Source: Candidatus Anderseniibacteriota bacterium
Lineage (GTDB): Bacteria; Patescibacteriota; Andersenbacteria; UBA10190
Direction of reading: 5' to 3'
Assembly: GCA_021414205.1 (NCBI GenBank)
Contig: JAIOOW010000003.1
Coordinates: 48-64,047 of the forward strand
Length of the DNA: 64,000 nt
A program made the translations under genes and the position numbers. The notes under the pieces are model-generated. The model was given only the letters and a program-made list of their open reading frames with translations, was not told the DNA's origin and ran no database searches. Below are positions 6,954 through 46,342 of the stretch, one piece after another. Every line of letters begins with the position of its first letter. The stretch's first letter is position 1.

Positions 6954-7763
6954 CTACTCTCCTCGCTCTTGCTGCAAATCGCGATAGATTTTTTCTGCTC
7001 GGATAAAGTCGGCCGGCTCGTCCAAATCAGTGCTTGTACGAGGATCTAAAACAAACCCATGGAGGTTTTCTCCCCAAATATTTTCCAATTCCAGCGCTTC
7101 CGGGCGCAATACAAACTTTCTGCGCGTAATATCAACTTGGCCGTCTTGGAAGAATACCGGGAACATCTGTTGAATTTTCTGCCGAGGCTGGTCTGGCCCA
7201 TGCTGACGACGAAACTCGTTATCAAATACGGGAATCAGTTTTCCCGATGACCCAATTTCAGGCGAACCCTCTAACTGCCACATTTTGTATGGATGTAGAG
7301 GGGTGGGGATGACGCTTTTCAGTCCATCCGCTCCTGAACTCTTTATGTGTTCAATCATTCGATCAATATCTTTGGCGAATCGGAGCGGACTTGTCGGCCG
7401 CAGATTCACTAAAAACTCCGGAGTCCAGCCGTGCTCCTGCTCCATCCATTTTACGGCATGGTCGTAAAATCCGGCATCACCGGATGTCGGTTGAGAAAAT
7501 TCTTGCGGACGCGGAGCAACCAGTGCCCCGAATTTTTTCGCCTCTTCTGCAATTTTTTCGTCTTCCGTAGATACGATAACAACATCAACATTTTTAGCTT
7601 CAAAGGCAACTTCAATAGCCCACTGGACCAAGCTTTTTCCGCCCAATGTTTGAAGGTTTTTATACGGCACGCTTTGCTGTCCAGCACGAGCCGGAATAAT
7701 AACTGCCACATCAACTGGTTCGCGTTTTGGATTCGATAGATTATTCATACCCCCATGATACAC
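6954..7763 (-). CDS. Acylneuraminate/CMP-sugar cytidylyltransferase family (NeuA-like).
   Basis: N-terminal VAVIIPARAGQQSVPYKNLQTLGGKSLVQWAIEVA is the CMP-NeuAc/CMP-Kdo synthetase family signature. Confidence 0.75.
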   Translation of the reverse strand: MYHGGMNNLSNPKREPVDVAVIIPARAGQQSVPYKNLQTLGGKSLVQWAIEVAFEAKNVDVVIVSTEDEKIAEEAKKFGALVAPRPQEFSQPTSGDAGFYDHAVKWMEQEHGWTPEFLVNLRPTSPLRFAKDIDRMIEHIKSSGADGLKSVIPTPLHPYKMWQLEGSPEIGSSGKLIPVFDNEFRRQHGPDQPRQKIQQMFPVFFQDGQVDITRRKFVLRPEALELENIWGENLHGFVLDPRTSTDLDEPADFIRAEKIYRDLQQERGE

Positions 7764-7770
7764 TAAAACA

Positions 7771-8241
7771 ATGCTTTACGGTCAATACAATAAACCACAT
7801 ACATATAACAAGCTCTTAACCCATCCTGTTTGGGAAACTGCACTATCCTGGATCCAAGCCCATGCCATCAACCTTCCGGACGGCGAACACGAAATACAAA
7901 ATCTGGATATCTATGCCAATATCATGTCCGTTACCACGCTAAAACCAGAAGACACATTCTTTGAAGTGCACGAAGAATATATTGACATTCACTATTGCTT
8001 GAGCGGTGGAGAGGCTATTGGATACGCTCCAATAGGAGAGCCCACAGAAAAAGAGCTTAACAAAGAAAAGGACTACCAACTCTTTCTGCCAACAGAAAAA
8101 ATGAGCCTCTGCATCTTGCAACCCCATAATTTCGCGGTCTTTTTCCCTACAGAACCGCATATGCCGAAGCTTCAAAATGGCATGGATACCACAGTAAAAA
8201 AGGTTGTTATTAAAATAAAAAAGAGCATGCTTGAGATATGA
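7771..8241 (+). CDS. YhcH/YjgK/YiaL (DUF386, NanQ-like) family cupin protein.
   Basis: 156 aa with a length and motif pattern (H..nLPDGeHEI.nLDIYANI...EVHEEYIDIHYCLSGGEAIGY) matching DUF386 sialic-acid-inducible proteins. Divergent from the NeuA-like gene. Confidence 0.6.
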   Translation: MLYGQYNKPHTYNKLLTHPVWETALSWIQAHAINLPDGEHEIQNLDIYANIMSVTTLKPEDTFFEVHEEYIDIHYCLSGGEAIGYAPIGEPTEKELNKEKDYQLFLPTEKMSLCILQPHNFAVFFPTEPHMPKLQNGMDTTVKKVVIKIKKSMLEI

Positions 8242-9173
8242 AAAACGTACTAGGAAAAACTGGGTTGAAAGTATCTCGAATTGGACTTGGGACCGTTGAA
8301 ATCGGCTTGGCATATGGCTTAAAAAATGAAGGGTTACCATCTGAACAAGATGCTATCACTCTACTAAAAACAGTTGTCGAAATAGGCATCACATATATCG
8401 ATACGGCCCGTGGATATGGGTTGGCGGAAGAAAGAATCGGCAAGTCTGAAATTGGAAAAAACGATCAAATAATAATAGGTACAAAATTCGGACAATTCAT
8501 AAAAAATGAACCCAACTTGCGTGGCTCAGATCTTGAAAAACGGATCCGAGAAGACATCGATTTGAGTCGAAAAAAATTGAATAAAGAAACACTCCAGCTC
8601 GCTCAATTTCATAACGAACTAGAAGACTACACTAACTTTTCTGAAATTATCGAAATTGCCGAAAAACTTAAAAACGAACAAAAAATCCAGCATGTCGGAA
8701 TCGCCGTTCGCGGAGAAGCAGCTGCGCTCGCCGCGATTAAAACTGGCTTTTTTGAGACCATTCAACTTGCGAACAACATAGTTGATCAAAGAATGGTACA
8801 AAATGTTCTGAAAAAAGCTCGTGAAAACAACATTGGAATCATCAATCGATCAGTCCTATTAAAAGGCGCTCTCACGCCTGCTCGAGCATCTTTACCTGAT
8901 GCGTTAGCGGAATTAAAGCAAAAAGCAGACAAGGCAGAAGCGATTGCCAAAAATCTCGGTGTAGACCTGCCCACTCTGGCAATTCGCTACGTATTATCAC
9001 AATCTGCCGTATCAACTGCCTTAATAGGGACTGTAAAAGCAAATCGCATAGAAAGCGCCCTGCAAGCACTTACCCAAGGTCCATTGCCAGAAGAAGTACT
9101 TATACAGTTTCAAGAATTAGCAATTGCAGACTCCGCCCAGATTGACCCTGCCAAGTGGCCCAAGGTAGACTAA
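8238..9173 (+). CDS. Aldo/keto reductase family oxidoreductase.
   Basis: GLGTVEIG and IDTARGYG motifs in an approximately 310-aa protein are typical of the AKR superfamily. ATGA overlap with the upstream gene. Confidence 0.8.
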   Translation: MKNVLGKTGLKVSRIGLGTVEIGLAYGLKNEGLPSEQDAITLLKTVVEIGITYIDTARGYGLAEERIGKSEIGKNDQIIIGTKFGQFIKNEPNLRGSDLEKRIREDIDLSRKKLNKETLQLAQFHNELEDYTNFSEIIEIAEKLKNEQKIQHVGIAVRGEAAALAAIKTGFFETIQLANNIVDQRMVQNVLKKARENNIGIINRSVLLKGALTPARASLPDALAELKQKADKAEAIAKNLGVDLPTLAIRYVLSQSAVSTALIGTVKANRIESALQALTQGPLPEEVLIQFQELAIADSAQIDPAKWPKVD

Positions 9174-9177
9174 CGCT

Positions 9178-9912
9178 ATGACACTCACTAACAAAGTAGC
9201 GCTTATCACAGGAGGAAATGGATTTTTAGGACAATATTTCGTTACTGCACTTAAAAATGCAGGAGCAACGGTAGTAGTCACTGATCGCGATAATGCTGAA
9301 ATTAATTTAGACGTTACCAGCAAGTCGTCTATTACAGATGCATTTGAACAAGCAATTTCTAAATACGGAAAAGTAGACATTGTTATTAACAACGCCGCAC
9401 TTGATCCGAAATTCGATGCCAACGCAGAGCAAAATGCGAAACTGTTTGAAAATTATCCCGAAGAATTAATTAAACAGAGCCTCGACGTAAATTTGCTTGG
9501 GTATACTTTAGTAGCTCAAGAAGCAATAAAACGAATGCTCGCTCAGGGATCCGGAAATATTATTAACGTTTCATCCATTTATGGCGTTGTAGGGCCAGAC
9601 CAGAGCATTTACCCGGAAGGCACCCAAAAACCAGTTGATTACTTTATCACAAAAGGTGGCGTAGTGATGCTCACAAAATTCTTGGCAACCACATACGGAA
9701 ACAAAGGCATTCGAGTAAATACATTAACGCTTGGCGGTGTATTTAAAGGGCACGGAAAAGATTTTACCGACAAATATGGAGCACGAACACCGATGGGTCG
9801 CATGGCAAATCCTGAAGAGGTAGGTGGGCCATTAGTGTTTCTCGCATCGGATAACAGCAGCTATATGACCGGTGCCAACCTCATCGTCGACGGCGGATTA
9901 ACTGCGTGGTAA
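9178..9912 (+). CDS. Short-chain dehydrogenase/reductase (SDR) family oxidoreductase.
   Basis: N-terminal Rossmann ALITGGNGFLGQ, NNAA, the YxxxK region and a PG-containing C-terminus. Confidence 0.75.
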   Translation: MTLTNKVALITGGNGFLGQYFVTALKNAGATVVVTDRDNAEINLDVTSKSSITDAFEQAISKYGKVDIVINNAALDPKFDANAEQNAKLFENYPEELIKQSLDVNLLGYTLVAQEAIKRMLAQGSGNIINVSSIYGVVGPDQSIYPEGTQKPVDYFITKGGVVMLTKFLATTYGNKGIRVNTLTLGGVFKGHGKDFTDKYGARTPMGRMANPEEVGGPLVFLASDNSSYMTGANLIVDGGLTAW

Positions 9913-10704
9913 TTAGTTTTTCCTCGCAATCACAACCATTCCCGCAGAAGCGAACCAAGGGGAAATGGCGTTTGAAATCGTCTTTACGATTTTTCCGAGA
10001 ATATTGAGCTCGTATGGCTTTGCACCACGAAGTATAGGCCAGTTGGAATACAGTCCGAAGTGACTATTAGCATCGGGCAAATCATGCGCAACTACTTCTT
10101 CTATCACAAAACCTGCCCGCATAAGCATTGCTTCAAACTCTGATTTTCCAAATAGATAATATGCAAAACTTGGCCTTCGGCCGAATATGCGCATAAACAA
10201 CCCTTCGATTCTTTTTAGGGGAATGTATAAAATTGTACGGAGCGTATTTGCTAGTGGAACTTCAACGCATACAAACCCATCTTTTTTTAGAACGCGATAA
10301 AATTCTTTAAGAGATTCTTCAACAGCGCCTTCAACATACTCGAGCGACCCGATAGAAAGGACTCCGTCTAGTGAATTGTCCATTGCCGGAATAGCGTCGC
10401 TTCCTGCAATTTTTACCGAAAGGTCCGGGTCATACTCCGTCATTGCGCGCACTGCCTGCGGATGTGCATCTATTCCAGATACGGCATACCCTTTGTTAGC
10501 TAGAAATAAAATCCACCCGCCAATTCCGCACCCAGCATCGAGATACGTTCCATTTTTCTGCAATTTCTTTTCCAGCATAGGCCAAAACGACTGCTTCTCG
10601 TACTGGGAAAAGTCGTTAATTGCGCTGTACATTTCTCGATAGCGATCATCCCACATTTTCGAGCGGTCAAAATTCTTCGGGTCAAATTTGTAAATAGGAA
10701 TCAT
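9913..10704 (-). CDS. Class I SAM-dependent methyltransferase.
   Basis: Motif I YLDAGCGIGGW and a post-I acidic residue (VSGIDA). Confidence 0.7.
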   Translation of the reverse strand: MIPIYKFDPKNFDRSKMWDDRYREMYSAINDFSQYEKQSFWPMLEKKLQKNGTYLDAGCGIGGWILFLANKGYAVSGIDAHPQAVRAMTEYDPDLSVKIAGSDAIPAMDNSLDGVLSIGSLEYVEGAVEESLKEFYRVLKKDGFVCVEVPLANTLRTILYIPLKRIEGLFMRIFGRRPSFAYYLFGKSEFEAMLMRAGFVIEEVVAHDLPDANSHFGLYSNWPILRGAKPYELNILGKIVKTISNAISPWFASAGMVVIARKN

Positions 10705-10719
10705 AGTATTAACCGTATG

Positions 10720-12600
10720 CTACTTCATGTATCGCTTCAAATGCTCCATGGCCTGCAAGAACCCGCGCCCGCCATGCAAATGCCCCTGCCAAATCTCCGG
10801 AACCATCGTTTCAGAATATCCTGCAAGCGGATCGAGGATCTTTTTAAAATCAACCGTTCCTTGGCCAATTTGCAGCCCCTCTTCACCAGTACCAGAACCA
10901 TCGGCAACATGAAGATGATGAATAAACGGTTTTAGCTCCGTAATCATTTCAACCAAATCTTCTCCGTACTGGTTACAGGAGAGCGCTGCATGAGACGTGT
11001 CAAAGCACATGGAATACCCAGTTTCTTCGAGGAATTTTTTAATTTCATCTTTTAACATGAAAATATTCGTAACCCATTCACCTCCGAACACCCATGGGCG
11101 AGGTGGAAGATTTTCCGGAAGCATTTCAACACCATCCGTCTTTAATTGCGATAATGTATCTGCGAATAATTCCAGTAGCTTTGCAGGATGCGGGGATCGG
11201 GTAAGCGTAATTCCTCCAGGATGAATAATAAATTTCGGCGTTCCTTGAAACGATTCCCCAAGCTTACGCGCAACATCGACGCTTCGCTGCAAAATCGCAA
11301 TAACTTGCTTGCGCTCATCAATATCTTCTGATGCTGGGTTCAAATATACACGCTTCATGTATTCCGGCGCATGCACGACAACTTCTTGCGAAAAAGATCC
11401 CGTTGGAATTTCTTCATCCAAATCTTTATCGCTCAAATGAAATTCGAACAAGTCGGGTTTAAATTCCAAATAATTTCGAAAATCCTTCCATCGAACAACG
11501 GGGCCCCATTTCCAAGAAATGTCCTCTGAAGAAAATGTTTTCGCAAGAGAAGCTCCAACTACATCGTCCTCCGTAAGAGCATCGCCAGCAGGAATATCCC
11601 TACAAGCAGTAACGCCAACTAATTCGTCCAGTCTCTGTGGGGATAATCCTTTTGCAGGACTTTTTGTGGTGAGCATATCGCGCGTAATGACGGTTCCGTC
11701 AGCAATAAACGTCTTTGCAACAACGCTCTTGCCTAACAGTTCTCGATTCATAATCTCCCCTCGAGAAAGTTTTTTTACGCCCTCCCCAACCGCCATTTCA
11801 ACTTCGCGAATTCCTGCAACCATGTCCTTAAATTCTTGCGGGAGCAGGGAAGCTTTGTGGTCCGGTCCTTCCAAATTTCTATCCGTGGTAATGTGTCGCT
11901 CAATAATGCACGCGCCCCGAGCAACTGCTCCGATGGAAACGGCAATTCCGCGTTCGTGTCCGGAATATCCTACCGGAACGCCATACACGCTCAGCGAATC
12001 CATATACTTCAAATTAATTTCCTTGAACGGCGCCGGATATGTGCTATTGCAATGCAAAATGGCAAACGGAACACCCAATGTCTTAATAAACTCTACGCCC
12101 GCTTTAATTTCTTCCTCCTGAGCCATTCCAGTAGACACGATCATCGGCTTTTTTGTCTTCGCAATATATTCCAAAAGCTCGTTATTCGTAAAATCAGGAG
12201 AACCTACTTTGTATACCGGAACATGGAGAAGATTTTCAATCATATCGCAGCTTTTCTTATCCCACGGATTCACCATGAAAATAATATTTCGCTTTGCCGC
12301 ATATGCTTCCAATTCCAAATAAGCATCGTCAGACAGCTCAAATTCTTTGAGTAGGGGGATTAAATACTGATACTTCTGCTCTGCACTATTCGGATTATCT
12401 AATATCTTTTTTTGATACACTTCCGCCAAATTTCGTTTTTGGAATTTTACCGCATTCGCTCCGGCATCTGCAGCAGCATCAATGAGCTCCCGTGCACGAT
12501 CGACGCTGCCGTTATGGTTTAGCCCGGCTTCCGCAATAATAAACGTAGGGTTGCCTGGTCCGATCTTTATATCACCCACTAGAAGAGGTTCAATTTTCAT
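10720..12600 (-). CDS. N-acylneuraminate (nonulosonate) synthase NeuB/PseI/LegI-like with SAF domain, fused to a C-terminal xylose-isomerase-like TIM-barrel (sugar phosphate isomerase/epimerase) domain.
   Basis: The N-terminal part (IGPGNPTFIIAEAGLNHNGSVDRARELIDAAADAGANAVKFQ) is the NeuB signature and is followed by a SAF-like segment. The C-terminal approximately 250 aa carries FEFHL, VVVHAPE, IIHPG, ENLP, CFDTSHA and HLHVAD..GEEG motifs of the AP_endonuc_2/xylose-isomerase-like fold. The start is chosen at internal Met39 (MKIEPLL, 12600) by alignment to NeuB N-termini. The ORF is open upstream to 12714. Confidence 0.72.
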   Translation of the reverse strand: MKIEPLLVGDIKIGPGNPTFIIAEAGLNHNGSVDRARELIDAAADAGANAVKFQKRNLAEVYQKKILDNPNSAEQKYQYLIPLLKEFELSDDAYLELEAYAAKRNIIFMVNPWDKKSCDMIENLLHVPVYKVGSPDFTNNELLEYIAKTKKPMIVSTGMAQEEEIKAGVEFIKTLGVPFAILHCNSTYPAPFKEINLKYMDSLSVYGVPVGYSGHERGIAVSIGAVARGACIIERHITTDRNLEGPDHKASLLPQEFKDMVAGIREVEMAVGEGVKKLSRGEIMNRELLGKSVVAKTFIADGTVITRDMLTTKSPAKGLSPQRLDELVGVTACRDIPAGDALTEDDVVGASLAKTFSSEDISWKWGPVVRWKDFRNYLEFKPDLFEFHLSDKDLDEEIPTGSFSQEVVVHAPEYMKRVYLNPASEDIDERKQVIAILQRSVDVARKLGESFQGTPKFIIHPGGITLTRSPHPAKLLELFADTLSQLKTDGVEMLPENLPPRPWVFGGEWVTNIFMLKDEIKKFLEETGYSMCFDTSHAALSCNQYGEDLVEMITELKPFIHHLHVADGSGTGEEGLQIGQGTVDFKKILDPLAGYSETMVPEIWQGHLHGGRGFLQAMEHLKRYMK

Positions 12601-13204
12601 AAGAGGAAAGTACCGCACGAGCAGGGACGCCGTCAATACCAGGTATAGATAGCGGCAAACACATAAGTTGATATGGGCCCGGCTGAATATCGGGCAGATA
12701 CAACCCTTCAACAATGACTATATTATGCGTCAGCAATATTTCATGCACTCGATCCTTTATGCCCTTTTTCTTAATAGAGAGAGCATCAAGGCCAACTAAT
12801 ACTATGCCAAGCTGGGCAATTTTTTCCGCAGCGCTTTCATCGAGCGCAGTAAAGTCTGCTCGAAATTCGTCAACAGAGAAGTTTGAATTGGCAGTTTTAA
12901 AAATAATTCGCTTACTGCCTGTTTCAGGAATGTGAGCAGATGTTATCACTGCAACGTCTGGGGGAATTTCCACAACCTCGCAATCGCCCACATATTGATC
13001 TAGGCTAAATGACTCTATTCCGGAATTACTAGCATTAATATGCGAAAGTGCATCTATATGGGTACCCGTATGAGATCCGAGAGAGATAGCAGTAAGACCG
13101 CTCTGCTCCACGCCTGCTTTTTGAATTTGTAATAGCTCAACGCCTGGATTGCCGGGATATATTGCCATAGCAGAGTGAATAGGTCGCGAAATATCAATCA
13201 GCAT
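12590..13204 (-). CDS. Cyclase-family protein (kynurenine formamidase-like).
   Basis: HTGTHIDALSH matches the putative-cyclase HxGTHxDxPxH metal-binding motif. Confidence 0.6.
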   Translation of the reverse strand: MLIDISRPIHSAMAIYPGNPGVELLQIQKAGVEQSGLTAISLGSHTGTHIDALSHINASNSGIESFSLDQYVGDCEVVEIPPDVAVITSAHIPETGSKRIIFKTANSNFSVDEFRADFTALDESAAEKIAQLGIVLVGLDALSIKKKGIKDRVHEILLTHNIVIVEGLYLPDIQPGPYQLMCLPLSIPGIDGVPARAVLSSYEN

Positions 13205-13587: not shown

Positions 13588-14980
13588 TTCCTTCGTGAGA
13601 ATACGTAGTCGCAACGCTTGGCAGTGCCTCGCCCAGCTTTTCACGGAGCATCTTTGCCTCTTGCTCTTCTCCGTGCACTAATGCGATGTTTTTCAAACCC
13701 TTTATCTGTTTTGCAAAATCAACTAATTGCCCTTGATCTGCGTGGGCAGAAAATTCGTTAAACAAAAATAATTCCGAACGAACAGGGAACCACTCCCCAT
13801 GCAATTCGATATTTTTTGCACCGGATAAAATCATTCTCCCTGTCGTACCTCGTGCCTGGTACCCCGTAATAAATACAGCGTTATTTGGATTACTAATAGT
13901 ATTGCGCAAATGATGGACTACGCGACCTGCAGTCATCATCCCTGATGCAGAAATAACCATAAAGGGCCCCTTCTTGCCGTTGAGCGCCTTAGATTCTTGG
14001 ACAGTGCGGATGTATTCAAGATTTCGGAAGGCGAGAGGTCGATCATCTTCACGCTCAAAATCGGCGCGCGTTTCAGTGTCGTACACATCAGCATGGTCGC
14101 GATACACTTCGGTAATATCAGTGGCAAGAGGTGAGTCTACGTAAATAGGAAATCGCGGAATTGCGCCACTATCTATCAACTTATGAATGATGTAGACCAA
14201 CATTTGTGTTCGGCCAAGCGAAAACGCAGGCACCACCATCACCCCGTTTCTGTCGCACACCTTTTTAATAGCCTGCGCTAATTCTATCTTCGCCTGCTTA
14301 AGGGGAATATGAGCTCTATTCCCGTACGTACTCTCCATGAGCAACACCTCGATTTCCTCTTTTGGAATTTCAGGATCGTGAAGAAGAGGAACCCCCTTGG
14401 GGCCCATATCACCCGTATATGCTATACAATGCGCTACGCCATCCTCTTCATATCTCAAAACAATAATCGCTGACCCCAGAATATGCCCGGCGTCATAGAA
14501 TTTAATAGAAACCCCTTCAACAATTTCATGCCACGCATCATCATCGTCGCGAGCATACGGCAACGACTCGAAATGCAACATAAGCTCAGTAACGTCTTTA
14601 AGCGTAACCAACGGTTCTCTATCATCAGGAGAACCAAGGTGGTGCAGGGCCCTATATTCGGCATCCTGCGCCTCAATTCCTACCATATCTTCAAGCATGC
14701 GCTGGGCCACATCTTTTGTTGCGGACGTAGAAAATATTTTTCCCACAAATCCTCGCTTTACTAGTAGCGGCAACATTCCGCAATGATCCAAATGTGCATG
14801 AGAAAGAACTACCGCATCTATTGAATCGGGAGGGAAAGAAAATGACCTGTTCCTCTCGCGCACATCCGGCAACCCCTGAAACGTTCCGCAATCAAATAGA
14901 ATTCTTTTTCCGGCAACTTCAACTAAGTGTTTACTACCAGTAACACTTCCCGCTCCGCCAAAGAAGGTTATACTAGCCAT
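13571..14980 (-). CDS. MBL-fold beta-CASP family ribonuclease (RNA-metabolising metallo-beta-lactamase).
   Basis: Canonical N-terminus MASITFFGGAGSVTGSKHLVE and the HxHxDH motif (SHAHLDHCG), with beta-CASP downstream motifs over approximately 470 aa. Confidence 0.75.
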   Translation of the reverse strand: MASITFFGGAGSVTGSKHLVEVAGKRILFDCGTFQGLPDVRERNRSFSFPPDSIDAVVLSHAHLDHCGMLPLLVKRGFVGKIFSTSATKDVAQRMLEDMVGIEAQDAEYRALHHLGSPDDREPLVTLKDVTELMLHFESLPYARDDDDAWHEIVEGVSIKFYDAGHILGSAIIVLRYEEDGVAHCIAYTGDMGPKGVPLLHDPEIPKEEIEVLLMESTYGNRAHIPLKQAKIELAQAIKKVCDRNGVMVVPAFSLGRTQMLVYIIHKLIDSGAIPRFPIYVDSPLATDITEVYRDHADVYDTETRADFEREDDRPLAFRNLEYIRTVQESKALNGKKGPFMVISASGMMTAGRVVHHLRNTISNPNNAVFITGYQARGTTGRMILSGAKNIELHGEWFPVRSELFLFNEFSAHADQGQLVDFAKQIKGLKNIALVHGEEQEAKMLREKLGEALPSVATTYSHEGTTLSI

Positions 14981-16843
14981 ATGCTCAGTATACTCTACGA
15001 ATGGATCACGGCCATCATTGCGATCCTTGTCCCCGGATGGATGGGCATCGCAATAATTTCACGCCTCAATATTCTTCAAGAAAAAACATTGCAGGTATCG
15101 ATAGGGTCGATACTAGGTATTTCTGTATTCGGCACAATATTGTATTACCTTGCGCACATCGTGCCTATCTACGCACGGGTATTGTGGCCCATGATTGGGC
15201 TATTTTTGTTCATAGCGATTTTTTCTCATTTTTGGAAAAAAAATCATAAGCACGCAACAACACTAGATAAAACCGCTCTCTTTATTTTCATGCTGGCGCT
15301 CATCCTCTTTTCAATAATAGGATCAAAACTACTTATTCAGCGCACCGACGGATTATACACGGGGATCATAAATGCATACGGGGATATCGGATGGCACGCA
15401 GCCCTCATTACCCAGTTAGCACAAACAAAAACATTACCTTTGCAAGACCCCATTTTCGCCGGAACAAACCTCACGTACCCATTCCTATCAAACGCAATGA
15501 GCTCCGCAATAATGATCATGGGATCCTCGCTTTCCGCAAGCGTAGACGTCCCTGCAATTATTCTGTTGCCGATTATTATCGTACTTCTTTACCATTTCGG
15601 AAAAACATATGGCGCATCTCGAGGAGCTGGAATACTTGTAATGCTGCTATTTTTATTCGGAGGGGCAACATTCGGATGGACAAGAATTGTCGCCGACATC
15701 AGTCAAAGCAATACATCCCTCGTACAATTTTTCACCCATCTCCCTAATAGGGATTATTCCGGAGTTGGAGGAGATACGCAGGGATATGATTTTCTTAACC
15801 CTGTAACATCACTATTACTTCCTCAACGTGCCATGCTGTTCGGCCTGCCCATTGTGCTAGCTGTCCTCATCCTCCTATCTCCGACTATCATCAAGAAAAA
15901 ATATTCTGCAATTATTGCAGGGCTCTTATCTGGGATGCTCCCGCTATTTCATGCACACGCGTGCATAGCACTTGCGGCAGGCATTACTGCACTTATTATT
16001 ACGAATCCAAACAAAAAATACTGGCTGCAATTTTTTATCCCCGCCTTTGTATTAGGCATTCCAGAATTGCTATTTTATACACATGGCAGTGCCGGTTCTG
16101 GGTCATTTTTCAGATTTGAACCGGGATGGATGAAGGGGGATATCAACTTCTTTGTATTCTGGGCGCAAAATACGGGAATAATTATCCCGCTAAGCATTCT
16201 GGCGTTGTTTATCAAAAAATGCCCAAAACCTGTACGCGCACTAGCGATCGCGGGCTTATTCTTATTCTGCATTTCCAACCTGTTTTTATTTGCTCCATGG
16301 GCATGGGATAATTTTAAAATTCTAGTATTTTGGTATTTATTTGCACTACCAATTGTTGCCTGGGTATGCGTTCGAATGTGGCAATCTCACGCAAAACATC
16401 TTATCCGACCACTCATTATTATCATTCTTTTTGTCCAAATCTTTTCAGGTGCTCTCGATATATGGAAACTTTCCCTCCCCACAGCAACGACGTGGCAGGA
16501 ATGGGATGCCAAAGCAATTATATTCGCTCAATACATTCAGCAATTCGTCCCAGTACAAGATCCTGTCGCAACAGCATCGGTACATAACTCACCAGTGGTA
16601 TTAGCGGGTCGCCTTTTATACCTTGGGTATCCTGCACACGTATGGAGCCACGGGGTATTACCATGGACAAGGGAAGCAGGCGTAAAGGCATTCTATTCAG
16701 GAGCATCTCAAACAATCAATAATGAAACCCCAAAATTTATCGTAGTGGGTCCTCAAGAGGTATCCTCATTTCCTACCCTAGTTATCCAACCAAGCTGGAT
16801 AAAAACAGTACAATACGGCCCCTATATACTATTTCGCCAATAA
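14981..16843 (+). CDS. Large polytopic membrane protein (function unknown, possibly a GT-C-like glycosyltransferase).
   Basis: At least 12 predicted TM helices. Adjacent to GDP-6-deoxyhexose genes. The start codon is uncertain. The ATG at 14981 abuts the divergent gene's start, and alternatives are the ORF start at 14927 or Met at 15041. Confidence 0.45.
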   Translation: MLSILYEWITAIIAILVPGWMGIAIISRLNILQEKTLQVSIGSILGISVFGTILYYLAHIVPIYARVLWPMIGLFLFIAIFSHFWKKNHKHATTLDKTALFIFMLALILFSIIGSKLLIQRTDGLYTGIINAYGDIGWHAALITQLAQTKTLPLQDPIFAGTNLTYPFLSNAMSSAIMIMGSSLSASVDVPAIILLPIIIVLLYHFGKTYGASRGAGILVMLLFLFGGATFGWTRIVADISQSNTSLVQFFTHLPNRDYSGVGGDTQGYDFLNPVTSLLLPQRAMLFGLPIVLAVLILLSPTIIKKKYSAIIAGLLSGMLPLFHAHACIALAAGITALIITNPNKKYWLQFFIPAFVLGIPELLFYTHGSAGSGSFFRFEPGWMKGDINFFVFWAQNTGIIIPLSILALFIKKCPKPVRALAIAGLFLFCISNLFLFAPWAWDNFKILVFWYLFALPIVAWVCVRMWQSHAKHLIRPLIIIILFVQIFSGALDIWKLSLPTATTWQEWDAKAIIFAQYIQQFVPVQDPVATASVHNSPVVLAGRLLYLGYPAHVWSHGVLPWTREAGVKAFYSGASQTINNETPKFIVVGPQEVSSFPTLVIQPSWIKTVQYGPYILFRQ

Positions 16844-17760
16844 GTGAGAATATCTTCAAGAGATTGCTCAAGCAATATTACTGACCTCCATCCAGTTTTT
16901 TCCGTAAGCCTTGATGCATCACCAATCATCACCGGATTGTCAGACGGCCGCATTTTTAAAGGATCCTGCCGAACTGTAACCTTCGCACTGCTTTGCGCTA
17001 ACAAGTTATCCAAAATTACTTGAATAGACGTACCCTTCCCACTAGCAACGTTATAAACCTGGCCAGTTTCTCCGTATTCCATAAGCAGTCGATACGCACG
17101 AACAACGTCGCGAACATCGGTAAAGTCTCGAATTGCCGTAAGGTTACCTACTGATATAACAGAATCTTGCTTGCCTGCCTCAATGCCCGCAATTTGCGAA
17201 GCAAAATCCGCTGTCACAAACCCCTTTTTCTGATTCGGTCCAATATGAGGAAACGGTCGCACTCGAATGCACATATCAGAATAATCCTTCTCTATGATTT
17301 GCTCCATTTCTAATTTACTTTGCGCATACGGATTAGCAGGGTGGCAATCCGCTAATGCTTTTTCGGCAATAGGAACACTATCACCATGACCATATATATC
17401 AGCACTGCTTACCACGAGCACTTTTGTATGCGGAGAAATTTCTCTCACATGGCCTAGCAGCTTTTCTGTTCCGACCACATTTACTGTTCGCGTAATTTCT
17501 GGATGATCAATCGCAAAGCCAACGGAACTCACCGCTGCCAAATGAATAATCCAATCAGGCTTTTCAGATTTTAAAACATCGATATAGGTTTCCGGTTTTG
17601 AGATATCGCTTGCGTATTTCGTAACAGAATCCGGCATCGATTCGATGTTCGTATCAAGAGCAATAATGTTGCTTTCAATCCACTCCTTACGTAATTCAGT
17701 AACGAGATGGCCACCAACAAACCCTCCAGCGCCTGTAATGAGAACGGAGGGTGATTGCAT
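16822..17760 (-). CDS. NAD-dependent epimerase/dehydratase family protein, likely a GDP-4-keto-6-deoxymannose reductase/epimerase partner of Gmd.
   Basis: VLITGAGGFVGGHLV Rossmann motif and the extended-SDR architecture. Immediately downstream of gmd in the same operon. Confidence 0.65.
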   Translation of the reverse strand: MQSPSVLITGAGGFVGGHLVTELRKEWIESNIIALDTNIESMPDSVTKYASDISKPETYIDVLKSEKPDWIIHLAAVSSVGFAIDHPEITRTVNVVGTEKLLGHVREISPHTKVLVVSSADIYGHGDSVPIAEKALADCHPANPYAQSKLEMEQIIEKDYSDMCIRVRPFPHIGPNQKKGFVTADFASQIAGIEAGKQDSVISVGNLTAIRDFTDVRDVVRAYRLLMEYGETGQVYNVASGKGTSIQVILDNLLAQSSAKVTVRQDPLKMRPSDNPVMIGDASRLTEKTGWRSVILLEQSLEDILTYWRNSI

Positions 17761-17775
17761 ACGCTGCTATTAAAA

Positions 17776-18744
17776 TTACTTAGATGCTTCTACAAGCTTC
17801 ATTTCCGATTCAACCATCATTGATACCAACTCAGGGAATGAAACGCTCGGCTCCCACCCAAGAACGCTTTTTGCCTTTGAAGGATCCGCAATAAGAAGGT
17901 CCACTTCAGCCGGTCGCATAAATTCTTCAGCCTGCTCAACATAATCCTTCCAGTTAAGCCCAACGTGCTTGAATGCTAGATCTAAAAACTCCTCAACAGA
18001 ATGCGTCTCTCCAGTTCCGATAACAAAGTCCTGGGCAGTATCTTGCTGAAGCATCAACCACATTGCACGAACATAGTCTCCCGCAAAGCCCCAATCGCGC
18101 TTTGCATCAACGTTACCCATAATAAGCTTCGTATCCAATCCTGCCTTAATGCGCGCTACGCCATTTGCAATTTTCCTCGTGACGAATTCGCGACCTCTGC
18201 GCGGAGACTCGTGGTTAAACAGCATCCCAGAACATGCGAATAAATTGAAACTCTCGCGATAATTAATCGTCGCATAATGACCGTATACCTTCGCAACGCC
18301 GTACGGACTTCGCGGATACAAAGGGGTTGTTTCTTTTTGAGGAACCTCCATAACCTTCCCAAACATCTCACTGCTACTTGCTTGATAAAAACGAGCATCG
18401 GGCTTAATAATTCGAATTGCTTCAAGTACGCGCGTAACACCAACCCCTGTTGCGCTGCCAGTTAGCTCAGGGATATCCCAGCTCGCTTTTACAAATGACT
18501 GCGCAGCCAAGTTATACACCTCATCGGGCATGGATTGCTGAACGGCGCGAATAATGGAAGATGAATCCTCTAAATCACCCGTAATCAAGTGAATATCTTT
18601 TAAAATATGCTCTATATTCTCAAACTGATAATTAGCGCTTCGTTGCACCAATCCATACACCTTGTACCCTTTTTCCAATAATAGCTCCGCAAGATACGAA
18701 CCGTCTTGTCCGGTGACCCCTGTTATTAATGCTGTTTTTGACAT
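17776..18744 (-). CDS. gmd: GDP-mannose 4,6-dehydratase.
   Basis: [46 protein letters not shown] is a near-textbook Gmd N-terminus. It is 322 aa with the catalytic S/T...YxxxK region. Confidence 0.9.
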
Positions 18745-40122: not shown

Positions 40123-40127
40123 GCGCT

Positions 40128-46339: not shown

Positions 46340-46342
46340 ACA

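What the first reader, a model, noticed from the sequence alone, without database searches (positions are those of the whole stretch)
6954..13204. Nonulosonic-acid (sialic-acid-like) biosynthesis cluster with a novel NeuB-SAF-TIM-barrel fusion
Seven adjacent genes: a NeuA-like CMP-sugar synthetase, a YhcH/NanQ-like cupin, an AKR, an SDR, a SAM-methyltransferase, a NeuB-like synthase and a cyclase-family protein. The NeuB-like synthase (10720..12600) carries an extra C-terminal domain of approximately 250 aa with xylose-isomerase-like TIM-barrel motifs (HLHVAD, ENLP, CFDTSHA). Together these encode what looks like a pathway to a CMP-activated, possibly methylated, nine-carbon keto-sugar. A synthase/isomerase fusion is unusual and could channel the hexosamine precursor. 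Such a decoration pathway is unexpected in a minimal genome and may modify pilins, S-layer or the polysaccharide made by the 51-57 kb cluster.
Basis: partly seen in the sequence, partly recalled or inferred. Interest (0 to 1): 0.62.

Follow-up and report, generated by a model that had tools for sequence, protein, structure and literature searches.

The report
Nonulosonic-acid cluster with synthase–phosphoesterase fusion
A conserved gene cluster in a tiny-genome (Candidatus Andersenbacteria) bacterium encodes a pathway to a CMP-activated sialic-acid-like sugar; its synthase is fused to an uncharacterised metal-binding barrel that resembles DNA-repair endonuclease IV more than sugar isomerases, most plausibly the pathway's missing sugar-phosphate phosphatase.

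Summary
Gene 10720-12600(-) encodes NeuB + SAF + a PF01261 TIM barrel.

The fusion is not unique. It is conserved in 18 Andersenbacteria loci. It also occurs in cyanobacteria (with added CBS domains), a Bacillus, Bdellovibrionales and a Helarchaeota archaeon, or as two adjacent genes. In the library searched, no paper describes its function.

The interpretation needs revising in three ways:
- **The barrel.** It belongs to a small subfamily found almost only with NeuB. Its nearest structures are MJ1311 and endonuclease IV, not ketose epimerases. It keeps 7 of endonuclease IV's 9 zinc ligands.
- **The NeuB domain.** It forms its own clade. The catalytic core is intact, but the Arg314 that bacterial NeuB needs is lost. 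It shares D134, K56, G214 and H248 with synthases that use sugar 6-phosphates (human NANS, the Prymnesium Kdn-9-P synthase).
- **Missing genes.** The locus has no hexosamine, NeuC/PseG or HAD-phosphatase gene.

Best reading (about 0.4): sugar-6-P + PEP gives NulO-9-P, the fused phosphoesterase removes the phosphate, and the product is CMP-activated and tailored by the SDR, AKR and methyltransferase. An isomerase/epimerase role or an NDP-sugar hydrolase role remains possible. I rate it a new variant of a known pathway, of moderate interest.

The parts
6954..7763 (-). CMP-ulosonic-acid synthetase-like cytidylyltransferase (269 aa)
   Evidence: PF02348, E 2.5e-19. The best NCBIfam hit is PseF at 77 bits, below the equivalog cut-off. 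Nearest PDB entries are CMP-Neu5Ac synthetases (6ifd 1.2e-18, 1eyr 9e-15), ahead of Kdo cytidylyltransferases. It is 29% identical to the P. parvum CMP-Kdn synthetase over 164 aa. It is conserved in all complete Andersenbacteria loci. It has 30-37% identical counterparts in clusters L032 and L038 from other lineages.
7771..8241 (+). YhcH/NanQ-like cupin (156 aa), a putative ulosonic-acid anomerase
   Evidence: PF04074, E 1.4e-38. It passes the TIGR00022 family cut-off. The N-acetylneuraminate anomerase model scores 117 bits, below its cut-off of 160. Nearest PDB entry is H. influenzae YhcH, 1jop, 1.7e-15. It is present in most Andersenbacteria loci but not all.
8238..9173 (+). Aldo/keto reductase (311 aa), a tailoring oxidoreductase
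   Evidence: PF00248, E 5.5e-39. Nearest PDB entries are AKR11-type enzymes (1ynp, 1pz1) and L-galactose dehydrogenases. It is conserved in Andersenbacteria loci. In other lineages its place is taken by GFO_IDH_MocA or Aminotran_3 genes.
9178..9912 (+). PtmA-like classical SDR (244 aa)
   Evidence: PF13561, E 4.9e-42. NCBIfam PRK09186 scores 164 bits and the flagellin-modification PtmA model 130 bits, both below cut-off. Orthologue-like SDRs (39-43% identity) sit beside NeuB-TIM in unrelated lineages L031, L032 and L038.
9913..10704 (-). SAM-dependent methyltransferase (263 aa)
   Evidence: Methyltransf_11/25/23, E down to 4e-14. It is conserved next to NeuB-TIM in Andersenbacteria. Methyltransferases recur in clusters L029, L031, L034, L037 and L039. 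One is fused to the C-terminus of NeuB-SAF-TIM in P0373/L038, 959 aa.
11761..12600 (-). NeuB (PEP-aldose condensing) TIM-barrel domain of the fusion, aa 1-280
   Evidence: PF03102, 270 bits. TIGR03569 NeuB_NnaB scores 341 bits (cut-off 399.65) and PseI 231 bits. The catalytic residues E25, K53, Q55, K129, S132, S154, Y186, S213, H215, E234, H236 and D247 (N. meningitidis numbering) are kept. Clade-specific states are K56, R57, D134, G214 and H248.
11539..11760 (-). Linker + SAF/antifreeze-like domain of the fusion, aa 281-354
   Evidence: PF08666, E 2.9e-10. The best PDB match is the human sialic acid synthase AFP-like domain, 1wvo, 3.1e-5. The position of N. meningitidis Arg314 is Ser (K-S-P). 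R286 and K291 are conserved in the clade.
10720..11538 (-). C-terminal MJ1311/endonuclease-IV-like metal-binding TIM barrel of the fusion, aa 355-626, plus stop codon
   Evidence: PF01261, 83 bits. Invariant or near-invariant residues are E386, H388, D393, H410, E413, H460, E496, D534, H537, H562, H564, D567, E574, E602 and H607. Profile against PDB: MJ1311 2e-23, endonuclease IV 5e-14 to 1e-8, UlaE 2e-4. hhalign gives 95.7% to E. coli Nfo against 2.7% to D-psicose 3-epimerase. The AF2 model has pLDDT 94.5, and the top Foldseek hits are 3wqo and 5zhz.
12590..13204 (-). Cyclase/arylformamidase-family protein (204 aa), an accessory gene whose 3' end overlaps the fusion gene's start by 11 nt
   Evidence: PF04199, E 1e-16. 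TIGR03035 scores 117 bits, below its cut-off of 223. It contains an HxGTHxD motif. It is present in the nearer Andersenbacteria loci only and absent from L010-L013 and L018.

Best explanation
The locus is a self-contained pathway to a CMP-activated ulosonic acid that carries no N-acyl group, most likely a Kdn-type nine-carbon sugar. It runs by the 'phosphorylated' route known from animals, Bacteroides and haptophytes, not by the classical bacterial route.

Proposed steps:
1. (inferred) The NeuB/SAF part of the fusion condenses PEP with an aldose 6-phosphate. Mannose-6-P is the simplest candidate. The product is an ulosonate 9-phosphate.
2. (inferred) The fused C-terminal barrel is a multinuclear-metal phosphoesterase of the MJ1311/endonuclease-IV type. 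It removes that phosphate, standing in for the HAD phosphatases (NANP, KdsC/BT1713 type) that do this job elsewhere.
3. (inferred) The YhcH cupin equilibrates anomers or the open chain.
4. (family shown, substrate inferred) The cytidylyltransferase makes the CMP-sugar.
5. (inferred) The PtmA-like SDR and the AKR oxidise and re-reduce one position, giving a net epimerisation. Related clusters transaminate at this point instead. The methyltransferase then O-methylates the sugar.

Shown here: the domain families; the intact catalytic residues of both domains; the obligate genomic coupling of this barrel subfamily to this NeuB clade; and the conservation of the cluster.
For: (1) Coupling of the barrel to NeuB.
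- The barrel subfamily is rare: 705 representatives at E<1e-3 among 1.84 billion.
- Of the 150 nearest representatives, 93 carry NeuB N-terminally.
- Complete stand-alone copies lie directly downstream of a NeuB gene in 5 of 5 cases at >=34% identity: L029, L031, L032, L034 and L039.

(2) Phosphoesterase-like active site.
- Seven of endonuclease IV's nine Zn ligands are invariant: H69/H109/E145/D179/H182/H216/E261 correspond to H410/H460/E496/D534/H537/H564/E602.
- Profile similarity ranks MJ1311 (2e-23) and endonuclease IV (5e-14) far above sugar epimerases. Foldseek agrees.
- From my own knowledge: endonuclease IV has 3'-phosphatase activity, and MJ1311 was reported to retain the trinuclear Zn ligands.

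(3) The partner NeuB forms a distinct clade.
- It is monophyletic in 97 of 100 bootstraps, with an intact catalytic core.
- Arg314 is S/G/T/C/I, never Arg, in every member examined, but Arg in all classical NeuBs sampled.
- It shares K56, G214, H248, A250 and the absence of Arg314 with human NANS. It shares the same residues plus R57 with the experimentally proven, Man-6-P-dependent P. parvum Kdn-9-P synthase.
- BLASTP gives 229 bits to NANS against 169 bits to N. meningitidis NeuB.
- PMC8208679 independently ties E134D and loss of R314 to the eukaryote/archaeal enzymes, which it suggests use ManNAc-6-P.

(4) The route needs a phosphatase and none other is present.
- PMC6200933 describes the synthase-phosphatase-CMP-synthetase scheme.
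- No BT1713/KdsC-type HAD gene is found in the window or in the 18 Andersenbacteria loci.
- No NeuC/PseG-type or amino-sugar gene is present either.

(5) Context. In Bacillus sp. JJ1533 the fusion gene sits next to a bifunctional mannose-6-P isomerase/GDP-mannose pyrophosphorylase.

(6) The cytidylyltransferase is nearest to CMP-sialic acid synthetases.
Against: - No enzyme of this barrel subfamily, MJ1311 included, has a demonstrated activity.
- The D229/H231 loop of endonuclease IV is deleted, so the third metal site is incomplete.
- The barrel also keeps the E-D-H-E tetrad used by ketose 3-epimerases, and structural similarity to those enzymes is nearly as good.
- A large subgroup, including all CBS-containing forms, has H460N/E496Q/N497T. 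That would cripple an endonuclease-IV-like site 1.
- One split cluster (L029) has a HAD-family hydrolase right beside NeuB-TIM, and L037 has a Metallophos gene and an Epimerase_2 (NeuC-like) gene.
- The NANS-like signature is not uniform. P. parvum has Ser at position 134 and human NANS has Ser at position 57. The human sequence was recalled from memory; only its C-terminal 56 residues were checked against PDB 1wvo.
- The three-clade unrooted tree cannot show that the clade is sister to NANS.
- A PtmA-like SDR is a constant partner, yet no SDR is needed in the plain Kdn/Neu5Ac-9-P scheme. The real chemistry is therefore richer than proposed.
Confidence: 0.4

Rival explanations
1. The barrel is a metal-dependent sugar isomerase or epimerase. 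It would act in one of two places. It could act before the synthase, for example making the aldose-6-P from a ketose-6-P as KdsD does before KdsA. Or it could act next to a keto group introduced by the partner SDR, epimerising a keto-intermediate of the ulosonic acid.
For: - It is a PF01261 member with the complete E496-D534-H564-E602 tetrad plus H537, the same positions that ketose 3-epimerases use.
- Foldseek finds L-ribulose, D-psicose and D-tagatose 3-epimerases and UlaE at E 1e-10 to 1e-8, TM 0.6-0.7.
- An SDR or GFO oxidoreductase is always in the cluster and could supply a keto substrate.
- A distant homologue (33% identity) sits between an NDP-sugar pyrophosphorylase and a 4,6-dehydratase-type SDR, where epimerisation alpha to a keto group is the expected chemistry.
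- The CBS pairing recalls KdsD, which is SIS + CBS (my own knowledge).
Against: - The sequence profile gives endonuclease IV 95.7% hhalign probability against 2.7% for D-psicose 3-epimerase. The PDB profile search lists about ten endonuclease IV sequences with better E-values than any epimerase.
- The extra invariant histidines H410 and H460 are endonuclease-IV Zn1 ligands. At least H410 has no histidine counterpart in the recalled D-psicose 3-epimerase sequence.
- The type-2 subgroup replaces the would-be catalytic base E496 with Gln.
- In Bacillus a conventional mannose-6-P isomerase is adjacent, so a second isomerase would be redundant there.
Confidence: 0.25
2. The barrel is a phosphodiesterase that frees the reducing sugar from a nucleotide sugar just before condensation. 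It would be a non-homologous replacement for NeuC, LegG or PseG, for example converting GDP-mannose or a GDP-6-deoxyhexose into the free sugar.
For: - It has endonuclease-IV-like phosphodiesterase ligands.
- The cluster lacks any NeuC/PseG homologue.
- GDP-mannose 4,6-dehydratase and a GDP-4-keto-6-deoxymannose reductase/epimerase-like gene lie 4-6 kb away, at 16822-18744, and are syntenic in relatives.
- NTP_transferase and 4,6-dehydratase-type genes flank the module in L033 and L035, and ManC does so in L036.
Against: - The partner NeuB carries the signature of enzymes that use sugar phosphates and lacks the Arg used by enzymes that take free N-acetylhexosamines.
- The GMD/GFS synteny is seen only among close relatives and is separated from the cluster by two unrelated genes.
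- Clusters L037 and L038 contain Epimerase_2-like genes as well.
Confidence: 0.12
3. The barrel does other chemistry on the ulosonic acid, or is a non-catalytic regulatory or scaffolding module. Candidate reactions are beta-elimination/dehydration as in IolE or dehydroshikimate dehydratase, or oxidation by a multinuclear iron centre as in MbnB-type enzymes.
For: - The same fold and a similar ligand set support dehydratases and multinuclear non-heme iron oxidases. IolI, the mannonate dehydratase 1tz9 and MbnB 7fc0 all appear among the Foldseek hits.
- Type-2 members change two ligands in concert, which hints at a different metal or role.
- CBS domains and radical-SAM, TPP and aminotransferase partners show that these clusters perform elaborate tailoring.
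Against: - Fifteen polar residues are invariant or nearly so across phyla, which argues for catalysis.
- No specific sequence similarity to the dehydratase or MNIO families was found above the endonuclease IV/MJ1311 signal.
Confidence: 0.1
4. The cluster makes one of the classical bacterial nonulosonic acids (Neu5Ac, legionaminic or pseudaminic acid). The missing steps would be encoded elsewhere in the genome.
For: - The best NCBIfam hits are NeuB_NnaB, PseF and the PtmA-like SDR.
- YhcH is linked to Neu5Ac.
Against: - All of those hits fall below the equivalog cut-offs.
- Arg314, essential for N. meningitidis NeuB, is absent.
- The conserved cluster and the window contain no dehydratase/aminotransferase/acetyltransferase set and no hydrolysing epimerase.
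Confidence: 0.05

Closest known systems
Phosphorylated sialic acid/Kdn route: animal NANS + NANP + CMAS; Bacteroides thetaiotaomicron Kdn-9-P synthase (BT1714) + Kdn-9-P phosphatase (BT1713) + CMP-Kdn synthetase; Prymnesium parvum Kdn-9-P synthase (PMC6200933)
   Same: - It has a NeuB-family synthase followed by CMP activation.
- The window's synthase domain shares K56, G214, H248, A250 and the lack of Arg314 with human NANS and the P. parvum enzyme, plus D134 with NANS and R57 with P. parvum.
- It scores higher against both of those enzymes than classical NeuBs do.
- No amino-sugar genes are needed if the substrate is Man-6-P.
   Different: - The phosphatase in all known examples is a HAD-superfamily enzyme. 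Here no HAD gene is present, and a TIM-barrel metalloenzyme is fused to the synthase.
- The cluster has extra constant partners that the known route lacks: a PtmA-like SDR, an AKR or GFO or aminotransferase, and a methyltransferase.
- Substrate and product are untested.
Classical bacterial NeuB/LegI/PseI synthases (e.g. N. meningitidis NeuB, PDB 1xuz)
   Same: - It has the same two-domain NeuB + SAF architecture and the same metal and PEP-binding residues.
- It is 32% identical to the N. meningitidis enzyme.
   Different: - It forms a separate clade (97/100 bootstraps).
- Arg314 is replaced by Ser or Gly and E134 by Asp, and K56/R57/K313 are gained.
- It falls below the NeuB_NnaB and PseI equivalog cut-offs.
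- It carries an extra C-terminal domain.
Endonuclease IV (Nfo/End), a trinuclear-zinc DNA phosphodiesterase/3'-phosphatase
   Same: - It has the same PF01261 fold.
- Seven of the nine Zn ligands are conserved in register, and the signature motifs HAP.., D-T-x-H, H-x-x-D and I-G-x-G are recognisable.
   Different: - The loop bearing D229 and H231 is deleted, with an invariant E574 nearby.
- It occurs only in sugar-biosynthesis contexts and is fused to a sugar synthase.
- Additional invariant residues E386, H388, D393 and E413 are present.
- DNA-binding features were not examined.
MJ1311 of Methanocaldococcus jannaschii (PDB 3wqo, 'D-tagatose 3-epimerase-like protein', function unknown)
   Same: It is the closest solved structure by sequence profile (E 2e-23) and by fold. 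By my recollection of the 2014 structure paper, which the tools do not hold, it retains endonuclease IV's Zn ligands but lacks a DNA groove.
   Different: - Identity is only about 22%.
- MJ1311 keeps the D-x-H of metal site 3, whereas the NeuB-linked subfamily has E-G there (alignment).
- MJ1311 is not known to be linked to a NeuB gene.
Ketose 3-epimerases / L-xylulose-5-P 3-epimerase UlaE (xylose-isomerase-like TIM barrels)
   Same: It has the same fold and the same E-D-H-E metal tetrad positions.
   Different: - Profile similarity is weak: UlaE 2e-4, L-ribulose 3-epimerase 0.013, D-psicose 3-epimerase hhalign 2.7%.
- The His ligands H410 and H460 are not a feature of that family.
Kdo pathway: KdsD (SIS+CBS) - KdsA - KdsC (HAD) - KdsB
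   Same: It follows the same logic: aldose-phosphate + PEP gives an ulosonate phosphate, which is dephosphorylated and then CMP-activated. CBS domains accompany some members.
   Different: The synthase family differs (NeuB, not KdsA/DAHP; the DAHP models score only 15-18 bits). The proposed phosphatase fold also differs.

Membership tests
NeuB family (PF03102) PEP-aldose condensing synthases | Pfam NeuB domain above gathering score, followed by a SAF/antifreeze-like domain | tested here: met
   NeuB scores 270 bits (cut-off 22.1) and SAF 41 bits (cut-off 21).
NeuB family (PF03102) PEP-aldose condensing synthases | Metal ligands H215/H236 and catalytic or PEP-binding residues E25, K53, Q55, K129, S132, S154, Y186, S213, E234, D247 (N. 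meningitidis numbering) | tested here: met
   All are conserved in the window protein and in 24 fused or split relatives.
Classical bacterial Neu5Ac/legionaminic acid synthase (TIGR03569 NeuB_NnaB) or pseudaminic acid synthase (TIGR03586 PseI) | Score above the NCBIfam equivalog cut-off | tested here: not met
   NeuB_NnaB scores 341.3 bits against a cut-off of 399.65. PseI scores 230.8 bits against 340.25.
Classical bacterial Neu5Ac/legionaminic acid synthase (TIGR03569 NeuB_NnaB) or pseudaminic acid synthase (TIGR03586 PseI) | Arg314 of the SAF domain, essential in N. meningitidis NeuB (PDB 4ipi/4ipj mutants; PMC8208679) | tested here: not met
   The window has Ser at this position. It is S/G/T/C/I, never Arg, in all TIM-associated NeuBs, and Arg in 7 of 7 stand-alone NeuBs and in N. 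meningitidis NeuB.
NANS-type (aldose-6-phosphate-using) NulO-9-P synthases | Sequence states reported or observed in enzymes that use phosphorylated substrates: E134D, no Arg at 314, K56, G214, H248 | tested here: met
   The window has D134, S314, K56, G214 and H248. Human NANS (recalled sequence) has D, G, K, G, H. The P. parvum Kdn-9-P synthase has S, no SAF domain, K, G, H. The link between E134D/R314 loss and phosphorylated substrates is proposed in PMC8208679.
NANS-type (aldose-6-phosphate-using) NulO-9-P synthases | Activity with Man-6-P or ManNAc-6-P and not with the free sugars | not testable with these tools
   This requires an enzyme assay.
AP_endonuc_2 / xylose-isomerase-like TIM barrel (PF01261) | Pfam domain above gathering score and a TIM-barrel fold | tested here: met
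   It scores 83 bits against a cut-off of 31.1. The AF2 model has pLDDT 94.5 with alternating beta/alpha elements. Foldseek probability is 1.00 to family members.
Endonuclease IV | Nine ligands of the trinuclear Zn centre (H69, H109, E145, D179, H182, H216, D229, H231, E261) | tested here: not met
   Seven are conserved (H410, H460, E496, D534, H537, H564, E602). The D229/H231 segment is deleted. I therefore do not file it as an endonuclease IV; it resembles one.
Endonuclease IV | DNA-binding groove and AP-site cleavage | not tested
The genomic context is sugar biosynthesis only.
Ketose 3-epimerase / sugar-phosphate 3-epimerase family | E-D-H-E metal/catalytic tetrad | tested here: met
   E496, D534, H564 and E602 are invariant in type-1 members. 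E496 is Gln in type-2 members.
Ketose 3-epimerase / sugar-phosphate 3-epimerase family | Significant profile similarity to characterised members | tested here: inconclusive
   Fold similarity is good (Foldseek E 1e-10 to 1e-8). Sequence-profile similarity is poor: UlaE 2e-4, L-ribulose 3-epimerase 0.013, DPEase hhalign 2.7%.
CMP-sialic/ulosonic acid synthetases (PF02348) | CTP_transf_3 domain, with nearest relatives being CMP-NulO rather than CMP-Kdo synthetases | tested here: met
   PF02348 scores 70 bits. PDB entries 6ifd, 1eyr and 1qwj (CMP-Neu5Ac synthetases) score 1e-18 to 1e-13, against KdsB at 2.5e-8 or weaker. The PseF and KdsB equivalog cut-offs are not met.
YhcH/NanQ N-acetylneuraminate anomerase | Family and equivalog HMM cut-offs | tested here: inconclusive
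   The TIGR00022 family cut-off is met (107.6 bits against 45.5). The anomerase equivalog cut-off is not met (117.4 bits against 160).
HAD-type Kdn-9-P/Neu5Ac-9-P/Kdo-8-P phosphatase | A homologue is present in the cluster | tested here: not met
   tblastn with B. thetaiotaomicron BT1713 finds nothing better than E 0.29 in the window, and no hit at E<1e-3 in loci L001-L028, which include the 18 Andersenbacteria loci. The rest of the genome could not be searched.

The most novel reading that the evidence does not exclude
The NeuB-linked barrel would be a previously unrecognised class of sugar-phosphate phosphoesterase built on the endonuclease IV/MJ1311 scaffold. Together with its dedicated NeuB clade it would define a widespread prokaryotic 'phosphorylated' route to ulosonic acids, present in CPR bacteria, cyanobacteria, Firmicutes and Asgard archaea. 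This route would start from a plain sugar 6-phosphate and introduce epimer, amino and methyl decorations after condensation, so its products could be nonulosonic acids not yet described. It would also supply the prokaryotic counterpart, and possibly the ancestor, of the eukaryotic NANS-type pathway.
Probability: 0.3. Interest if true: 0.7.

Novelty: new variant of a known kind. Interest (0 to 1): 0.55.

Why it matters
- **An orphan enzyme gets a testable function.** Nonulosonic acids decorate flagella, pili, S-layers and capsules and shape host and phage recognition, yet environmental and uncultivated lineages are almost unexplored. This finding links an orphan TIM-barrel subfamily (nearest solved structure MJ1311, function unknown since 2014) to one specific pathway step. 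That makes its function directly testable with a simple coupled assay.
- **It would extend the phosphorylated route into prokaryotes.** If the barrel is the missing 9-phosphate phosphatase, the animal-type phosphorylated route would be widespread in prokaryotes. A published conjecture that E134D and loss of R314 mark enzymes using phosphorylated substrates would gain support.
- **It would explain how a reduced genome makes this sugar.** A CPR bacterium with a reduced genome could build a sialic-acid-like surface sugar from central metabolites alone, namely PEP, a hexose-6-P, CTP and SAM.
- **Annotation should change.** Current labels such as 'N-acetylneuraminate synthase' or 'sugar phosphate isomerase/epimerase' are probably misleading for several hundred database entries.

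Tried and rejected
- **Wasted literature search.** The first paper search used min_terms=2 and returned only noise.
- **MJ1311 paper not available.** Searches by name, topic and DOI failed. What I say about its Zn ligands rests partly on memory and partly on the HMM alignment.
- **No prior description found.** No paper links nonulosonic acids or NeuB with Patescibacteria/CPR, or describes the fusion.
- **Phylogeny limited.** The NJ tree shows that the TIM-associated NeuBs are one clade. With only three clades and no outgroup it cannot show that they are sister to NANS. I rely on shared residue states and bit scores instead.
- **Uninformative contexts.**
  - Crocosphaera L019 has MenF, UbiA and protease neighbours.
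  - L033 and L034 are frameshift-ridden assemblies.
  - The listing of cluster members gave almost no taxonomy.
- **KDO8P/DAHP-type synthase rejected.** Those models score only 15-18 bits.
- **Assembly artefact rejected.** The fusion is conserved in more than 120 clusters.
- **Epimerase_2-like proteins are not NeuC equivalents.** The ~630-aa proteins in L032, L037 and L038 are only weakly related to each other, look like glycosyl- or glycerophosphotransferases, and have no counterpart in the window.
- **Promoter/terminator scan uninformative.** It found fewer sites than the shuffled controls.
- **Link to the 51-57 kb cluster untested.** It contains a flippase, GT2 enzymes and Wzy_C proteins but nothing specific to CMP-NulO.

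Full report
**What is there**

The window comes from a Candidatus Andersenbacteria (Patescibacteria/CPR) genome. The best related loci are 95% (L015) and 89-90% identical (L002, RIFCSPHIGHO2_12_FULL_45_11b, and L001) at the protein level for the fusion gene.

They match the families it named:
- a CTP_transf_3 cytidylyltransferase, 6954-7763(-)
- a YhcH/DUF386 cupin, 7771-8241(+)
- an aldo/keto reductase, 8238-9173(+)
- a classical SDR, 9178-9912(+)
- a SAM methyltransferase, 9913-10704(-)
- a 626-aa NeuB + SAF + PF01261 (AP_endonuc_2, 'xylose isomerase-like TIM barrel') protein, 10720-12600(-)
- a cyclase/arylformamidase-family protein, 12590-13204(-), whose 3' end overlaps the fusion gene's start by 11 nt

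The genes form three abutting transcription units. The cytidylyltransferase and YhcH genes diverge with only 7 nt between them. The SDR and methyltransferase genes converge with no spacer. Consensus promoter and terminator scans were uninformative.

**Is it real and conserved?**

Yes.
- More than 120 protein clusters at >=61% identity carry the same three-domain architecture.
- In 18 Andersenbacteria loci, down to 64% identity, the set NeuB-TIM, methyltransferase, SDR, AKR, usually YhcH, and cytidylyltransferase is syntenic.
- The cyclase gene is lost from the more distant loci (L010-L013, L018), so it is accessory.
- A beta-CASP nuclease, a 638-aa membrane protein with no Pfam match, and a GDP-mannose 4,6-dehydratase plus a GDP-fucose-synthase-like gene flank the cluster in the nearer relatives.

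**The fusion is not unique**

I searched 1.84 billion cluster representatives with the C-terminal domain alone (aa 355-626).
- Only 705 hits came back at E<1e-3, and 105 at E<=1e-30.
- Of the best 150, 93 have a NeuB domain N-terminal to the barrel.
  - 53 are NeuB-SAF-TIM, about 620-660 aa when complete.
  - 40 carry an extra N-terminal region of about 110-140 residues, about 730-770 aa in all.
- That extra region is a CBS domain in the members I checked, such as Crocosphaera L019, Dactylococcopsis salina and P0377. The Geminocystis sp. NIES-3709 protein is equally long (748 aa), but no CBS hit is recorded for it.
- Other carriers are a Bacillus sp., Bdellovibrionales, a Helarchaeota archaeon, and a NeuB-SAF-TIM-methyltransferase quadruple fusion.

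Complete stand-alone copies of the barrel (34-42% identical) lie immediately downstream of a separate NeuB gene in every case I examined: L029, L031, L032, L034 and L039. Only more distant relatives (30-33% identity, L035 and L040) are unlinked to NeuB.

The barrel is therefore a small subfamily dedicated to a NeuB partner. That is a textbook gene-fusion / split-gene functional link. Annotation pipelines already name these proteins 'N-acetylneuraminate synthase family protein' or 'sialic acid synthase SpsE/sugar phosphate isomerase/epimerase'. I found no paper describing them.

**What kind of barrel is it?**

Alignments of fused and stand-alone members show an unusually rich set of invariant polar residues: E386, H388, D393, H410, E413, H460, E496, D534, H537, H562, H564, D567, E574, E602 and H607.

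A profile of the family against all PDB sequences gave:

| Target | E-value |
|---|---|
| MJ1311 (3wqo, function unknown) | 2e-23 |
| Endonuclease IV, M. tuberculosis (5zhz) | 5e-14 |
| Endonuclease IV, several other species | about 1e-8 to 1e-6 (E. coli Nfo about 1e-2) |
| UlaE | 2e-4 |
| L-ribulose 3-epimerase | 0.013 |

Other comparisons agree.
- Profile-sequence comparison gave 95.7% probability to E. coli Nfo against 2.7% to D-psicose 3-epimerase. Both sequences were recalled from memory.
- An AlphaFold2 model is confident (pLDDT 94.5). Its best Foldseek PDB matches are again MJ1311 and M. tuberculosis endonuclease IV, followed closely by ketose 3-epimerases.
- In register with endonuclease IV, seven of the nine zinc ligands are invariant: H69/H109/E145/D179/H182/H216/E261 correspond to H410/H460/E496/D534/H537/H564/E602.
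- The loop carrying D229 and H231 is deleted, with an invariant E574-G575 nearby.
- The same E-D-H-E tetrad is what ketose 3-epimerases use, so the residues alone do not exclude isomerase chemistry. The two extra histidines, H410 and H460, are typical of endonuclease IV.
- A second subtype has concerted H460N/E496Q/N497T changes. It includes all CBS-bearing proteins. I cannot explain this.

**What kind of NeuB is it?**

The catalytic core is intact. The protein nevertheless falls below the NeuB_NnaB and PseI equivalog cut-offs.

In an alignment of 24 TIM-associated NeuBs, 7 stand-alone bacterial NeuBs and N. meningitidis NeuB:
- The TIM-associated proteins form one clade (97 of 100 NJ bootstraps).
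- They differ at active-site-proximal positions. Arg314 of the SAF domain is essential in N. meningitidis NeuB (PDB 4ipi/4ipj; PMC8208679). It is replaced by S, G, T, C or I in every TIM-associated NeuB, but is Arg in every classical one.
- E134 is Asp in all but one member (P0155 has Thr).
- R57 is present in all members, and K56 and K313 are gained in most, with some type-2 members differing.

I took the experimentally characterised, Man-6-P-dependent Kdn-9-P synthase of Prymnesium parvum from the supplement of PMC6200933. I recalled human NANS from memory; its C-terminal 56 residues are confirmed by the 1wvo alignment.
- Both share K56, G214, H248, A250 and the absence of Arg314 with the TIM-associated clade.
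- NANS also shares D134, and P. parvum shares R57.
- Most TIM-associated NeuBs, especially the type-1 and split forms, score higher against both enzymes than classical NeuBs do. Some type-2 members do not. Scores against N. meningitidis NeuB are similar in the two groups. For the window protein the figures are 229 bits (38% identity) to NANS and 169 bits (32%) to N. meningitidis NeuB.
- PMC8208679 independently notes that E134D and loss of R314 distinguish eukaryotic/archaeal synthases, and suggests a link to phosphorylated substrates.

The three-clade tree cannot be rooted, so I do not claim a sister relationship.

**Putting it together**

The phosphorylated route runs aldose-6-P + PEP to NulO-9-P, then a phosphatase, then a CMP-synthetase. 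It is established for animals, B. thetaiotaomicron and P. parvum, always with a HAD phosphatase (PMC6200933).
- The Andersenbacteria cluster has the synthase and a cytidylyltransferase whose nearest solved relatives are CMP-Neu5Ac synthetases.
- It has no HAD phosphatase. No BT1713 homologue was found in the window or in the Andersenbacteria loci.
- No NeuC/LegG/PseG-type hydrolase, dehydratase, aminotransferase or acetyltransferase for amino sugars was found in the cluster or among the roughly 50 larger window ORFs I scanned.
- A phosphoesterase-like domain fused to, or encoded right after, a NANS-like synthase is most simply the missing phosphatase.
- Mannose-6-P is the most economical substrate. 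In Bacillus sp. JJ1533 the fusion gene sits beside a bifunctional mannose-6-P isomerase/GDP-mannose pyrophosphorylase.

The remaining genes are recurrent partners across phyla:
- a PtmA-like SDR, 39-43% identical in L031, L032 and L038
- a cytidylyltransferase, 30-37% identical
- a methyltransferase, once fused to the synthase
- a second oxidoreductase (AKR here, GFO_IDH_MocA elsewhere) or, in its place, a class-III aminotransferase

This pattern suggests oxidation of one position after condensation. Re-reduction would then give an epimer, as here, and transamination would give an amino sugar, as elsewhere. Methylation would follow. That part is inference only.

**Rivals**

- **Isomerase/epimerase (0.25).** The barrel could act before the synthase or on a keto intermediate supplied by the SDR. 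The E-D-H-E tetrad, the fold matches and the L035 context favour this. The profile similarities and extra His ligands argue against it.
- **NDP-sugar hydrolase replacing NeuC/PseG (0.12).** The nearby GDP-mannose dehydratase genes fit this. The NANS-like signature argues against it.
- **Dehydratase, iron oxidase or non-catalytic module (0.1).**
- **A classical Neu5Ac/Leg/Pse pathway with the other genes elsewhere (0.05).**

Evidence against my preferred reading:
- a HAD gene beside NeuB-TIM in L029
- Metallophos and Epimerase_2 genes in L037
- the type-2 ligand changes
- the complete lack of biochemical data for any member

**Verdict**

Three claims need revising.
- The fusion is not novel as an architecture.
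- The barrel is not demonstrably an isomerase.
- Nothing points to a hexosamine precursor.

What is new is the functional inference. A dedicated NeuB clade with NANS-like features is obligately paired with an MJ1311/endonuclease-IV-like metallo-barrel. This probably constitutes a synthase-phosphatase module of a phosphorylated ulosonic-acid route that is widespread in uncultivated bacteria and some archaea. I rate it a new variant of a known kind, interest 0.55.

Noticed in passing
window 45275-49092 and composition profile 46-52 kb: recF-like (45275-46339), dnaN (46343-47443) and dnaA (47674-49092) lie together. The GC skew changes sign between about 48 and 50 kb, so the chromosomal replication origin is probably in the 49.1-49.9 kb gap.
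   Followed up: partly
window 23982-26468, 59050-60876, 62778-63986, 31374-33056: Type IV secretion/conjugation-like genes are present: a TrwB/VirD4-like coupling protein, a TraG/VirB4-like ATPase and a weak TrbL/VirB6-like hit. There is also a T2SSE/PilB-type ATPase. Several neighbouring ORFs have no Pfam match.
   Followed up: no
window 14927-16843(+): A 638-aa polytopic membrane protein has no Pfam match (best hit DUF6338, E 0.005). It is conserved between the cluster and the GMD/GFS genes in relatives. Its called start overlaps the divergent beta-CASP gene by 54 nt. It could be a GT-C-type glycosyltransferase; a PMT_2 protein occupies a similar place in L031.
   Followed up: partly
window 16822-18744(-): GDP-mannose 4,6-dehydratase (17776-18744) and a GDP-fucose-synthase-like epimerase/reductase (16822-17760) lie 4-6 kb from the cluster and are syntenic in near relatives. 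They may feed the same glycan, or supply the NeuB substrate under the NDP-sugar hydrolase rival.
   Followed up: partly
alignment A1; proteins P0142, P0145, P0150, P0161, P0172, P0175, P0176, P0181, P0182, P0187, P0190, P0202, P0224, P0239: A second subtype of the NeuB-linked barrel has concerted H460N(S)/E496Q/N497T(S) substitutions. It comprises all CBS-NeuB-SAF-TIM proteins (cyanobacteria and others) and a few without CBS. The change in two predicted metal ligands is unexplained.
   Followed up: partly
L038 5828-8707 (P0373, 959 aa); L032 8001-9242, L034 9001-10170 and several TIM+CBS proteins: Further architectures of the same module exist: NeuB-SAF-TIM-methyltransferase in one polypeptide, and stand-alone TIM-CBS proteins encoded after a separate NeuB gene.
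   Followed up: partly
L029, L031, L032, L037, L039: Related clusters pair NeuB-TIM with class-III aminotransferases, GFO_IDH_MocA oxidoreductases, B12-radical-SAM enzymes, KpsC-like Capsule_synth proteins, Glyphos_transf proteins and a Maf-like PF01973 protein. This suggests a family of differently decorated ulosonic acids, with amination after condensation.
   Followed up: no
L019 6802-11661 (Crocosphaera) and L040 3291-5289: A UbiA-family prenyltransferase lies close to the barrel-containing gene in two unrelated contexts. In Crocosphaera it is separated from the gene by an isochorismate-synthase-like gene. In the archaeal-looking contig L040 it is directly adjacent to a distant stand-alone barrel. 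This may be coincidence.
   Followed up: no
window 38584-41441: A PKD + 7TM_transglut membrane protein is followed by a 'sugar-transfer associated' ATP-grasp protein with a Zn-protease-like tail, next to a class A PBP with Big_7 domains.
   Followed up: no
window 1233-2351 and 34134-35843: Two probable surface proteins are present, one with bacterial TSP3 repeats and one with three lamin-tail domains. These are the kind of proteins that could carry the glycan.
   Followed up: no
window 7763/7771 and 9912/9913: Gene packing is extremely tight. There are only 7 nt between the divergent cytidylyltransferase (GTG start) and YhcH starts. There is no spacer between the convergent SDR and methyltransferase stop codons. 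Promoters and terminators must therefore lie inside coding sequence, or the GTG start is called too far upstream.
   Followed up: partly
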